From the human T2T-CHM13v2.0 reference genome, Homo sapiens, in the NCBI RefSeq assembly GCF_009914755.1, contig NC_060930.1: a DNA stretch of 64,000 bases; one strand, written 5' to 3'. A program made the translations under genes and the position numbers. How positions within the stretch are numbered: the first letter of the stretch is position 1; each line of letters starts with the position of its first letter. The notes beneath the pieces were generated by a model. That model was not told where the DNA came from and did not search any database. It saw nothing but the letters and a program-made list of their open reading frames with translations. Below, piece after piece: positions 59,167 through 61,391 of the stretch.

Positions 59167-61391
59167 CTTTTTTTTGAGACGGAGTCTAGCTCTGTCACCT
59201 GGTGCATTCTCGGCTTGCTGCAGCCTCTGCTTCCTGGGTTCGAGCGATTCTCCTGTCTCAGCCTCCCAAGTAGCTGGAACTGCAGGCATGCGCCACTACA
59301 CCTGGCTAATTTTTGTGTTTTTAGTGGAGATGGGGTTTCACCGTGTTGGCCAGGCTGTTCTTGAACTCCTGGCCTCGGGTGATCCGCCCGCCTCGGCCTC
59401 CCAAGGTGCTGGGATTACAGGCATGAGCCATCACGCCCAACCTCTTAAGAGGTGTTTTGTTTTTGTTTTTGTTTTTTTTTAAGAGAAGCAGGTCTTGCTG
59501 TGTTGTCCAGGCTGGACAGCAGTGGCTATTCACAAGCATGATCATGTTGTACTACAACCTTGAACCTTCTGGGCCTAGCTTTAAAAGCTTTGTAATGTGG
59601 GGCTGGTGCAGTGGCTCACACCTGTAGCCCCTGCACTTTGGGAGGCTGAAGAGGGAGGTTCGAAATTTGAGACCAGCCTGGGCAACACAGACCTCGTCTC
59701 TACAAAAAGTGCAGGGGTTAGCCAGGTGTGGTGGCGCATGCCTGTGGTCTCGACTGCTTGGGAGTCTGAGGCAGAAGGATTGCTTGAGCCCAGGAGTTCA
59801 AGTCTGCAGTGAGCTATGATCGTGTCACTGCACTCCAGCCTGGGTGACAGAGCAAAACCCTGTCTCAAAAATAAAACAGTCCGTGGGTGGAGGCTCAGGC
59901 CTGTAATCCCAACACTTTGGGGGGCCACGGCAGGAGGATTGCTTGAGCCCATTAGTTCAAGACCAGCCTGGGCAACACAGCAAGATCATATCTCTACAAA
60001 AAATAAATAATTAGCCAGGTTCGGTGGCTCATGCCTGTAGTCCTAGCACTTTGGGAGGCTGAGGTAGGCAGATCACTTGGGGTCAGGAGTTTGAGACCAG
60101 CCTGGCCAACATGGTAAAACCTTGTCTCTACTAAAAATACAAAAAAAATTAGCCAGGCATGGTGGCAGGCGCCTCTAATCCCAGCTGCTCAGGAGGCTGA
60201 GGCGATAGAATTGCTTGAACCCGGGAGGCGGAGGTTGCAGTGAGCCGAGATCATGCCACTGCACTCCAGCCTGGGCGACAGAGCGAGACTCTGTCTCTAA
60301 AAATAAATAAAGAAATAATTAAAAAGTTAGCCAGCTGTGGTGGTGAGCACCTGTACTCCTAACTACTCAAGAGGCTGGGTGGGAGGATTGATCAAGTCCA
60401 GGAGTTTGAGGCTACAATGAACTATGATCACAACATTGCACTCCAACCTGGGTAATGGAGTGAGGCCCTGCCTCAAAAAAAACAAAACAAAACAAAAAAC
60501 TTTTATAACGTGTACCTAACAAAGATTGCAGAGTTAAATTTTATTTGCCAGTTTGTAAAAGCCTTTGATATTCATTTTAAGGGCACTTAGTAATTACAAT
60601 GCCATTATGTAATTAACTCTATAGAGAACATTACTTCCAAATAATGGATGGTCAGACATTAAGAGAGCCCCAGAGAGTCCCTACAGCTATCCTTTATGTC
60701 CCCTTTTTTGTTTGTTTTTTGGAGACAGCATCTCCCTCTGTCTCCCAGGCCGGAGTGCAGTGGTGTGATCACGCCTCGCTGCAGCCTCTGCCTCCTGGAC
60801 TCGGGTGGTCCTCCCGCCTCAGCCTCCCGAGTAACTGGGACCACAGGCGCGCACCCTCTCCACCCAGCTAATTTTTGTATTTTGTTGTAGAGATAGGGTT
60901 TCGCCATGTTGTCCAGACTGGTCTCGAATTCCTGCGGTCACATGATCCATCTGCCTTCGCCTCAGGCCTGAGCCACTGTGCCCAGTCTTTTTATGCCACA
61001 TTTTAAAGGGTTTGCTTATTACCAAGCTTACTGTTAATGAAATTTAGTTCAAAGTTTAAAAGTAGAATGCAGCCAGGCACAGTGGCTTATGCCTGTGATC
61101 CCAGCACTTTGGGAGGCCGAGGTGGGTGGATCATTTGAGGTCAGGAGTTCAGGACCAGCTTGGCCAACATGGTGAGACCCTGTTTCTACTAAAGATGCAG
61201 AAAGGTTAGCTGGGCATGGTGGTACGCGCCTGTGATCCCAGCTGCTTGGGAGGCTGCGGTGGGAGGATCGCTTAGGCCCGGGGGGCGGAGGTTGCAGTGA
61301 GCTGAGATTAAGATCGTGCCACTGCACTCCAGCCTGGGCAACAGAGCAAGACTCTGTCTCAAAAAAAAAAAAAAAAAAAAAAAAAAAAAAA
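59167..61391. mobile_element. Alu array of the AP4S1 3' UTR: AluS(-) 59167-59443, FAM(-) ~59470-59578, AluJ(+) 59601-59870, AluJ(+) with nested AluS ~59878-60490, AluJ(-) 60716-60987, Alu(+) 61072-61391
   Basis: Alu matches with a marked A>G excess on the + strand. Confidence 0.9.

What the first reader, a model, noticed from the sequence alone, without database searches (positions are those of the whole stretch)
59167..61391. Fossilised ADAR hyper-editing: an A-to-I edited AP4S1 mRNA written back into the genome
Seen: the Alus in the retrocopy's 3' UTR differ from Alu consensus by a strong excess of A>G on the + (mRNA) strand, in both orientations. Antisense Alu 59167-59443 has G at 59217, 59223, 59242, 59282, 59317, 59326, 59343, 59372, 59377 and 59405. 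In sense Alu 59601-59870 the linker AAAAAATACAAAAATTA reads AAAAAGTGCAGGGGTTA (59704-59720), with further G at 59627, 59746 and 59756. Antisense Alu 60716-60987 has CTCAAGTGATC > CTCGGGTGGTC (60803, 60804, 60808) and G at 60778. In sense Alu 61072-61391 CTAAAAATACAAAAAATTAGC reads CTAAAGATGCAGAAAGGTTAGC, with further G at 61097, 61176, 61234, 61244 and 61283. The nested Alu adds 60040, 60080 and 60187. That is more than 30 sites, densest in the two closely spaced inverted pairs, and many have a 5' T or A neighbour. Controls: the CDS remnant shows only one evident A>G amino-acid change (I67V) and the neighbouring Alu at 61830-62123 about one A>G. Established: ADAR edits inverted-Alu duplexes in 3' UTRs, disfavours a 5' G, and reverse transcriptase reads inosine as G. 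CpG decay and subfamily differences cannot give a transcript-strand bias. Inference: L1 machinery copied one hyper-edited germline or early-embryo AP4S1 transcript, leaving a single-molecule record of ancestral ADAR activity and showing RNA edits becoming heritable DNA. I cannot tell whether this locus has already been described this way.
Basis: partly seen in the sequence, partly recalled or inferred. Interest (0 to 1): 0.93.

Follow-up and report, generated by a model that had tools for sequence, protein, structure and literature searches.

The report
ADAR-edited mRNA fossilised as a pseudogene
A dead, intron-less copy of the AP4S1 gene on chromosome 6 still carries some 40-50 A-to-G changes, confined to the paired Alu repeats of its tail, that look like RNA editing marks copied back into inherited DNA.

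Summary
Window 58064-61783 is a spliced retrocopy of a chr14 gene, annotated as an AP4S1 pseudogene. It has six exons, a 3.2 kb Alu-rich last exon, an AATAAA signal and a poly(A) remnant. Parent-to-retrocopy changes in the last exon are A>G 78, T>C 34, C>T 36, G>A 26. The unique sequence is balanced (7/9/9/7), and exons 1-4 have 1 A>G among 18 changes. In five Alus 69 of 326 parent A's read G, against 20 of 319 T's reading C. Polarised with 31 other Alus of the window, the retrocopy lineage has A>G 40 and T>C 2; the parent lineage has 1 and 5. The bias follows the mRNA strand in both Alu orientations. Best reading: one ADAR-hyperedited mRNA was reverse-transcribed and inserted in the germline. 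Weak points: no target-site duplication found, no 3' G enrichment, AluE barely biased, no outgroup primates. Ten literature searches found no description of this for a processed pseudogene.

The parts
58064..58213 (+). Retrocopy exon 1 (5' UTR); 5' end of the retrocopy, directly abutting an Alu fragment
   Evidence: 95% match to C14:25223471-25223622; the parent has GT after the exon.
58214..58431 (+). Retrocopy exon 2, with ATG at 58293; the reading frame is broken (stop after 44 codons)
   Evidence: 93% match to C14:25263926-25264136; translation.
58432..58519 (+). Retrocopy exon 3; holds the only A>G of exons 1-4 (58493)
   Evidence: 97% match to C14:25267644-25267730.
58520..58588 (+). Retrocopy exon 4
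   Evidence: 97% match to C14:25270705-25270774; its last base, 58588, reads A where the parent reads G.
58589..58600 (+). 12-nt micro-exon 5
   Evidence: Identical 12-mer at C14:25278380-25278391, flanked by AG and GT.
58601..61764 (+). Last exon: end of the CDS plus a ~3.1 kb 3' UTR, colinear with the parent
   Evidence: MFFT pair alignment to L003 2714-6259 (= C14:25290714-25294259). Unique parts differ at 50/1219 sites = 4.1%.
59172..59443 (-). AluA, antisense. A hybrid of parent Alu1 (left part) and Alu2 (right part); about 420 nt of the parent is missing between them. 18 of 55 parent A's read G
   Evidence: 12 A>G v 0 T>C against the pooled consensus.
59601..59870 (+). AluB, sense, predicted to pair with AluA. 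14 of 72 A's read G, including a run at 59714-59717
59880..60015 (+). Old AluC, left half (split by AluD): internal negative control, 0 of 38 A's read G
   Evidence: weak duplex energies of -128 to -158 kcal/mol.
60016..60300 (+). AluD, nested, sense. 9 of 76 A's read G
   Evidence: strong duplexes with all three antisense Alus.
60301..60490 (+). Old AluC, right half: 2 of 67 A's read G
60716..60987 (-). AluE, antisense. 7 of 47 A's read G but 6 of 74 T's read C, so the bias is weak
   Evidence: pairs with AluF in the MFE fold.
61072..61365 (+). AluF, sense. 21 of 77 A's read G
61736..61741 (+). AATAAA polyadenylation signal, 23 nt before the end of homology
   Evidence: Sequence; homology to the parent ends at 61764.
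61765..61783 (+). Decayed poly(A) tail remnant, absent from the parent

Best explanation
A fully spliced, distally polyadenylated AP4S1 mRNA carried inverted Alu repeats in its 3' UTR. These folded into long double-stranded hairpins, and ADAR deaminated roughly 40-50 adenosines to inosine in that one molecule, about 15% of the A's in five Alus after background is subtracted. A reverse transcriptase, most likely L1 ORF2p acting in trans, read each inosine as G. The cDNA was inserted on chromosome 6 in a cell of the germ line. The edits became ordinary heritable G's in a dead pseudogene.

Shown: the spliced retrocopy, the strand-specific and Alu-restricted A>G excess, its polarity, its 5' neighbour pattern, and its link to duplex-forming ability.

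Inferred: ADAR as the agent, L1 as the reverse transcriptase, the germline setting, and the age. The age estimate of roughly 15-40 Myr comes from 3.9% divergence and recalled primate substitution rates.
For: 1. Retrocopy. Six parent exons spread over about 71 kb of C14 lie contiguous in the window, and the parent introns have GT..AG ends. There is an AATAAA signal and an A-rich tail where homology ends.
2. Against the parent. A>G 78 v T>C 34, C>T 36, G>A 26. Unique sequence reads 7/9/9/7. Exons 1-4 have 1 A>G among 18 changes.
3. Rate. 69/326 A's in five Alus v 7/414 in unique sequence (p=4e-19). With A>G removed, Alu divergence falls to 3.5-6.2%, close to the 4.1% of unique sequence.
4. Polarity. 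A majority consensus of 31 other window Alus gives retrocopy-derived A>G 40, T>C 2, C>T 15, G>A 11. Parent-derived counts are A>G 1, T>C 5, C>T 18, G>A 24. At >=0.9 consensus support the retrocopy counts are 25 v 1.
5. Strand. The excess is on the mRNA strand in antisense AluA (18 v 4) and in sense AluB, D and F (14 v 2, 9 v 3, 21 v 6).
6. Structure. In the parent sequence Alu2 folds onto AluB and AluE onto AluF (MFE -533 and -378 kcal/mol). B, D and F form 210-257-bp duplexes with each antisense Alu, at -314 to -449 kcal/mol. The unedited AluC halves form only 93-149 pairs, at -128 to -189 kcal/mol.
7. 5' neighbour rates: T .37 > A .28 > C .21 > G .07, chi2 p=2e-4. This is the order I recall for ADAR1.
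8. The same Alu column is hit in several Alus, e.g. GCTACT>GCTGCT in B, D and F.
9. 31 control Alus in the window show no such skew.
Against: - The 3' neighbour pattern does not show the 3' G enrichment I recall for ADAR: C .33, and G, A and T all about .17-.18.
- AluE, one arm of the tighter pair, is barely biased (7 v 6).
- Within the Alus, A>G sites are no more often base-paired in the MFE fold than other A's (Fisher p=1 and 0.27).
- No target-site duplication of 9 nt or more was found, and the 5' end abuts a truncated Alu, so L1 target-primed insertion is not demonstrated.
- Polarity rests on a pooled consensus of mixed Alu subfamilies. At 24 sites the G is the consensus state, so those could be G>A changes in the parent instead.
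- No other primate genome was available, so the Gs are not dated to the insertion.
- It is a single locus.
Confidence: 0.88

Rival explanations
1. Ordinary divergence seen through a polarity artefact. The differences are G>A changes, CpG decay included, in the parent gene after the copy was made, or they come from Alu misalignment. They are not A>G changes in the copy.
For: At 24 Alu sites the retrocopy's G equals the pooled Alu consensus and the parent's A is the odd one out. 23 of the 78 A>G differences touch a CpG.
Against: At 40 sites the parent and the consensus both read A and only the retrocopy reads G, against 2 such T>C. Non-CpG sites alone give 55 v 25. CpG decay in the parent should also give as many parent T / retrocopy C sites, and it does not (CpG class 23 v 9). 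The counts are stable when gap-adjacent columns are dropped. The left part of AluA shares a private internal deletion with parent Alu1, so the alignment is orthologous.
Confidence: 0.04
2. Changes made during or by reverse transcription rather than on free RNA: misincorporation by the reverse transcriptase, or ADAR acting on the RNA:cDNA hybrid during insertion.
For: A review states that ADARs can deaminate deoxyadenosine in DNA:RNA hybrids in model substrates, citing Zheng et al. 2017 (PMC12925331, passages seen). ADAR1 is reported to bind the L1 ribonucleoprotein (same passages).
Against: Editing of the cDNA strand would appear as T>C on the mRNA strand, which is not raised (20/319). Polymerase error or hybrid editing should affect the whole 3.7 kb hybrid. 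Yet unique sequence has 7/414 A>G, and the poorly pairing AluC halves have 0/38 and 2/67.
Confidence: 0.04
3. A strand-asymmetric or GC-biased DNA process at the chr6 locus after insertion: transcription-coupled asymmetry, or GC-biased gene conversion.
For: None specific. Such processes are known in general (recalled).
Against: GC-biased conversion would raise T>C as much as A>G (2 v 40). A locus-wide asymmetry would show in the retrocopy's unique sequence (7 v 9) and in the flanking Alu 61826-62125 (3 v 1). Across 31 window Alus the sums are 70 v 60.
Confidence: 0.02

Closest known systems
A-to-G hypermutated retroviral genomes attributed to ADAR (Rous-associated virus, avian leukosis virus LTR, HTLV-2/STLV-3)
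   Same: dsRNA-dependent A-to-I editing of an RNA that is then reverse-transcribed, so that the DNA copy carries clustered A>G. [quoted passage not shown] 1994 and Ko et al. 2012, which I did not read).
   Different: Those are viral genomes copied by their own reverse transcriptase, mostly somatic or in culture. Here the RNA is a cellular mRNA, the duplex is made by inverted Alus in its 3' UTR, the copy is a processed pseudogene, and it is inherited. For an endogenous mouse provirus (the 5' part of Mtv61) an A>G excess was noted, but its sequence context did not fit ADAR (PMC12548423, passage seen).
APOBEC3 G-to-A hypermutated retroelements fixed in vertebrate genomes
   Same: A host deaminase leaves a one-type, one-strand cluster of mismatches between a retro-copied element and its source. 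It is detected by pairwise and consensus polarity filters like those used here (PMC4866542, methods passage seen; Carmi et al. 2011 recalled, not held).
   Different: APOBEC acts on the first-strand cDNA and gives G>A on the plus strand with a different motif. Here the change is A>G, made on the RNA before copying, and restricted to dsRNA. PMC4866542 does not mention ADAR (0 occurrences).
ADAR editing of inverted Alu pairs in human 3' UTRs
   Same: The substrate architecture is the same: closely spaced, oppositely oriented Alus in a non-coding part of a Pol II transcript (PMC4982230, passage seen).
   Different: That editing is known as a transient RNA-level event. The same review says roles of ADAR editing in Alu evolution have 'not yet been determined'. 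Here the edits are seen in DNA.
Retroprocessing in plant mitochondria
   Same: [quoted passage not shown]
   Different: That is C-to-U editing by a different machinery, integration is by homologous replacement of the gene itself, and it occurs in an organelle genome.

Membership tests
Processed pseudogene (retrocopy of a spliced mRNA) | All introns are missing; the parent exons are contiguous | tested here: met
   Six exons from C14:25223471 to 25294259 are contiguous in window 58064-61764. The parent introns begin GT and end AG.
Processed pseudogene (retrocopy of a spliced mRNA) | Ends at a polyadenylation site with a poly(A) tail not encoded in the parent | tested here: met
   AATAAA at 61736-61741; homology ends at 61764; an A-rich remnant at 61765-61783 is absent from the parent.
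Processed pseudogene (retrocopy of a spliced mRNA) | Lies at a locus unlinked to the parent | tested here: met
   The window is on C6 and the parent on C14.
L1 target-primed reverse transcription insertion | Flanking target-site duplication and an L1 endonuclease-type target | tested here: inconclusive
   No direct repeat of 9 nt or more is shared by the flanks 57700-58075 and 61755-62400 other than two chance-like 9-mers far from the junctions. The 5' end abuts a truncated Alu, and a later Alu sits just 3' of the tail.
ADAR A-to-I hyper-editing footprint | A>G excess on the transcript strand over T>C, whatever the repeat orientation | tested here: met
   69 v 20 in five Alus; 40 v 2 when polarised; antisense AluA 18 v 4, and sense B, D, F 14 v 2, 9 v 3, 21 v 6. 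AluE is the exception at 7 v 6.
ADAR A-to-I hyper-editing footprint | Confined to segments able to form long dsRNA | tested here: met
   Unique sequence 7/414; AluC halves 0/38 and 2/67, with weak duplexes; B, D and F 12-27%, with 210-257-bp duplexes.
ADAR A-to-I hyper-editing footprint | 5' neighbour preference with G disfavoured (U>A>C>G, recalled) | tested here: met
   Rates T .367, A .282, C .208, G .070; chi2 p=2e-4.
ADAR A-to-I hyper-editing footprint | 3' neighbour G enriched (recalled) | tested here: not met
   Rates C .325, T .179, A .176, G .172.
ADAR A-to-I hyper-editing footprint | The same adenosines are edited in present-day transcripts of the parent gene | not testable with these tools
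   No editing database or RNA-seq was available. The one paper holding both 'AP4S1' and 'A-to-I' is unrelated to this question.
ADAR A-to-I hyper-editing footprint | The changes date to the insertion event, i.e. are shared by all species carrying the retrocopy | not testable with these tools
   Only the window's own genome is held; it 'has no relatives here'.

The most novel reading that the evidence does not exclude
This may be the first documented case of a cellular mRNA whose ADAR hyper-editing was written into the inherited genome through retrotransposition. It would be a single-molecule snapshot of editing in an ancestral primate germ-line cell, some tens of millions of years old. If so, three things follow. 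Heavily edited inverted-Alu mRNAs are not fully sequestered or destroyed, and can reach the L1 machinery. ADAR is a source of clustered heritable A>G mutation. Retrocopies that carry inherited inverted repeats could be mined genome-wide as a fossil record of germline ADAR activity and site preference. The same route may also have fed edited variants into Alu evolution.
Probability: 0.35. Interest if true: 0.78.

Novelty: new variant of a known kind. Interest (0 to 1): 0.62.

Why it matters
RNA editing is usually treated as leaving the genome untouched. This locus is a clean natural example of the opposite: about 40-50 edits from one RNA molecule became ordinary inherited bases.

It gives a concrete, testable handle on three open points. 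First, whether hyper-edited inverted-Alu mRNAs are available to L1 in the germ line. Second, what ADAR's site choice looked like on a single ancient molecule, which bulk RNA-seq cannot show. Third, how much ADAR contributes to clustered A>G differences between retrocopies and their parents.

It also matters in practice. Such retrocopies could mimic RNA editing when reads are mis-mapped between pseudogene and parent.

The components (ADAR editing of inverted Alus, inosine read as G, retrocopy formation) are all established. A specialist would probably find the result expected in principle, but a well-documented case is still of value.

Tried and rejected
- Target-site duplication. A k-mer comparison of both flanks found nothing usable. 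I considered a chimeric Alu-mRNA retrocopy made by template switching, because an Alu left monomer abuts the 5' end. I could not support it: no duplication flanks that Alu either.
- Per-base pairing in MFE folds does not separate A>G sites from other A's inside the Alus, so I rely on whole-Alu duplex potential instead.
- Timing of the ~420-nt Alu1/Alu2 hybrid deletion is left open. The options are a source allele that already had it, a template switch by the reverse transcriptase, or Alu-Alu recombination after insertion. Both halves of the hybrid carry A>G. The hybrid pairs with AluB along its whole length in a model fold. With both Alus present, Alu1 can pair with AluD or AluF.
- Rfam found only the neighbouring U2 pseudogene.
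- Literature. Ten full-text searches found no paper describing ADAR-edited processed pseudogenes. 'hyper-edit' with 'retrocop' gave 0 papers. 'hyperedit' with 'processed pseudogene' gave 6, all about APOBEC or plant organelles going by title and abstract.
- Knisbacher & Levanon 2015 and Carmi et al. 2011 are not held, so I could not check whether they mention this route. Supplements were not consulted.
- A genome-wide extension was not attempted.
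Full report
**What is there**

The window is human chr6. A search of the window's own genome with the unique sequence 58600-59160 found one other copy, on contig C14, at 95% identity. A second search with 57990-58620 found four further C14 pieces in the same order and strand. Their genomic flanks carry AG...GT splice signals. A 12-nt micro-exon lies between them and the last exon; it is C14:25278380-25278391, flanked by AG and GT.

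The last exon aligns colinearly from 58601 to 61764 with C14:25290714-25294259. It ends 23 nt after an AATAAA, where an A-rich tail absent from the parent begins. So 58064-61783 is a fully spliced, polyadenylated retrocopy of a six-exon mRNA spanning about 71 kb of chr14. The supplied annotation calls it an AP4S1 pseudogene. Its reading frame is broken, with a stop after 44 codons.

No target-site duplication was found.

**The Alus are inherited from the parent**

Every Alu in the retrocopy's 3' UTR has a counterpart at the same place and orientation in the parent. The first Alu (59172-59443) is the one structural difference. It is a hybrid of two neighbouring antisense Alus of the parent, with about 420 nt missing between them. 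Its left part shares a private internal deletion with parent Alu1. Its right part and flank match Alu2.

**Substitution spectrum against the parent**

Over the last exon there are 221 mismatches:

| Region | A>G | G>A | T>C | C>T |
|---|---|---|---|---|
| Whole last exon | 78 | 26 | 34 | 36 |
| Unique sequence | 7 | 7 | 9 | 9 |

Exons 1-4 add 18 changes in 520 bases, with a single A>G at 58493.

A>G versus T>C per Alu:
- AluA, antisense: 18 v 4
- AluB, sense: 14 v 2
- AluD, nested, sense: 9 v 3
- AluE, antisense: 7 v 6
- AluF, sense: 21 v 6
- Two halves of the old AluC: 0 v 2 and 2 v 2

Per adenosine, 69 of 326 parent A's in the five Alus read G in the retrocopy. That compares with 20 of 319 T's reading C and 7 of 414 A's in unique sequence (Fisher p=4e-19).

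If the A>G changes are set aside, the Alus differ from the parent by 3.5-6.2%, close to the 4.1% of unique sequence. Restricting to non-CpG sites (55 v 25) or to columns away from gaps (69 v 24) does not change the picture.

**Polarity**

I built a majority consensus from 31 other full-length Alus of the same window and used it as an outgroup.
- Parent and consensus agree, retrocopy differs: A>G 40, T>C 2, C>T 15, G>A 11.
- Retrocopy and consensus agree, parent differs: A>G 1, T>C 5, C>T 18, G>A 24.

So the two lineages have similar C>T and G>A loads, and only the retrocopy lineage has the A>G burst. At >=0.9 consensus support the counts are 25 v 1 for the retrocopy and 1 v 1 for the parent.

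The slight surplus of parent 'G>A' over 'C>T' (24 v 18) could hide a few more edits that happened to restore the consensus base. This brackets the number of edits at roughly 40-50.

Measured the same way, the 31 control Alus have on average 2.3 A>G and 1.9 T>C on the window's + strand (maxima 6 and 7). AluA, B and F have 12/0, 13/4 and 13/1.

**Is it ADAR-like?**

- The bias follows the mRNA strand in both Alu orientations. That excludes Alu-intrinsic hot spots and CpG decay.
- It is limited to sequence that can form long dsRNA. In the parent sequence Alu2 folds onto AluB and AluE onto AluF (MFE -533 and -378 kcal/mol).
- Sense Alus B, D and F form 210-257-bp duplexes with each antisense Alu, at -314 to -449 kcal/mol. 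The two unedited halves of AluC form only 93-149 pairs, at -128 to -189 kcal/mol.
- The 5' neighbour rates are T .37 > A .28 > C .21 > G .07 (p=2e-4). This is the order I recall for ADAR1.
- Runs such as four adjacent A's at 59714-59717 all read G.
- The same Alu column is hit in several Alus, for example GCTACT>GCTGCT in B, D and F.

Three things do not fit neatly:
- The 3' neighbour is not G-enriched; C is highest.
- AluE is barely biased.
- Per-base pairing in the MFE fold does not distinguish changed from unchanged A's.

Of the 36 named positions, 31 are parent A / retrocopy G. Positions 59711, 60804, 61200 and 61176 are G in the parent too, and 60808 is C>G.

The neighbouring Alu has 3 A>G and 1 T>C against my consensus, rather than about one.

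**Rivals**

- Parent-side G>A change or CpG decay cannot explain 40 sites where parent and consensus both read A.
- Reverse-transcriptase error, or ADAR acting on the RNA:cDNA hybrid, would not be limited to the pairing Alus. Hybrid editing of the cDNA would give T>C on this strand. The hybrid activity itself is described in PMC12925331 (passages seen).
- GC-biased conversion or a locus-wide strand asymmetry would raise T>C, or would affect unique sequence and the flanking Alus. Neither is seen.

**Age and setting (inference)**

69 differences in about 1,750 unique aligned bases is 3.9%. With recalled primate substitution rates this puts the insertion very roughly 15-40 Myr ago. The retrocopy should therefore be shared among apes and perhaps Old World monkeys, and it must have arisen in the germ line or in pre-germline embryonic cells. 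I could not test this.

**Comparison with what is known**

A>G-hypermutated retroviral genomes attributed to ADAR were reported in the 1990s, and later for HTLV-2 and STLV-3 (PMC12925331, passages). An A>G excess in an endogenous mouse provirus was discussed, but its context did not fit ADAR (PMC12548423, passage).

APOBEC G>A hypermutation of retroelements fixed in genomes is well documented and uses polarity filters like mine. The one such paper I could open does not mention ADAR (PMC4866542).

A 2016 review says roles of ADAR editing in Alu evolution had 'not yet been determined' (PMC4982230, passage). Plant mitochondrial retroprocessing is the classic case of RNA edits written into DNA (PMC4987113, abstract).

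Ten searches found no account of an ADAR-edited processed pseudogene. The library lacks most subscription journals, and two key papers were not held.

**Verdict**

The mechanism combines established steps, so it is a new variant of a known kind rather than a new principle. As far as I could search it is an undescribed natural example, it is unusually clean, and it suggests a genome-wide test.

Noticed in passing
window 57915-58063: An Alu fragment (left monomer, linker and about 15 nt of the right monomer) ends exactly where the retrocopy's exon 1 begins. No target-site duplication flanks either the retrocopy alone or the Alu plus retrocopy. It could be an insertion into an Alu with target loss, or a template-switch chimera.
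   Followed up: partly
window 59304/59305; L003 3421-3840: The retrocopy's first Alu is a hybrid of two parent Alus, with about 420 nt missing (spacer plus an Alu half with an extra Alu-like insert). The breakpoint lies in shared sequence near GGCTAATTTTTGT. The timing is unresolved: source allele, reverse-transcriptase template switch, or later Alu-Alu recombination.
   Followed up: partly
window 58589-58600; C14:25278380-25278391: A 12-nt micro-exon of the parent gene, flanked by AG and GT, is retained in the retrocopy. It was missed by the exon-by-exon genome search and found only by a motif scan of the intron.
   Followed up: yes
window 62152-62342 (-): A full-length U2 snRNA pseudogene (Rfam RF00004, 151 bits, model positions 1-192) lies about 370 nt downstream of the retrocopy's tail, just beyond an antisense Alu (61826-62125). 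Three RNA-derived insertions sit side by side.
   Followed up: no
window 61393-61433: About 41 nt, including a second A-run, are present in the retrocopy and absent from the parent, just after AluF's poly(A). It is either a deletion between A-runs in the parent or an insertion in the copy.
   Followed up: no
window 59161 and 59165: Two of the 7 'unique-sequence' A>G changes lie within about 10 nt of AluA's edge (GAAAGCTAT>GAAGGCTGT). They may be edits just outside the Alu proper, which would make the unique-sequence background even lower.
   Followed up: no
window 61797-61830: A (TTCC)n-like microsatellite sits between the retrocopy's tail and the next Alu's T-rich end.
   Followed up: no
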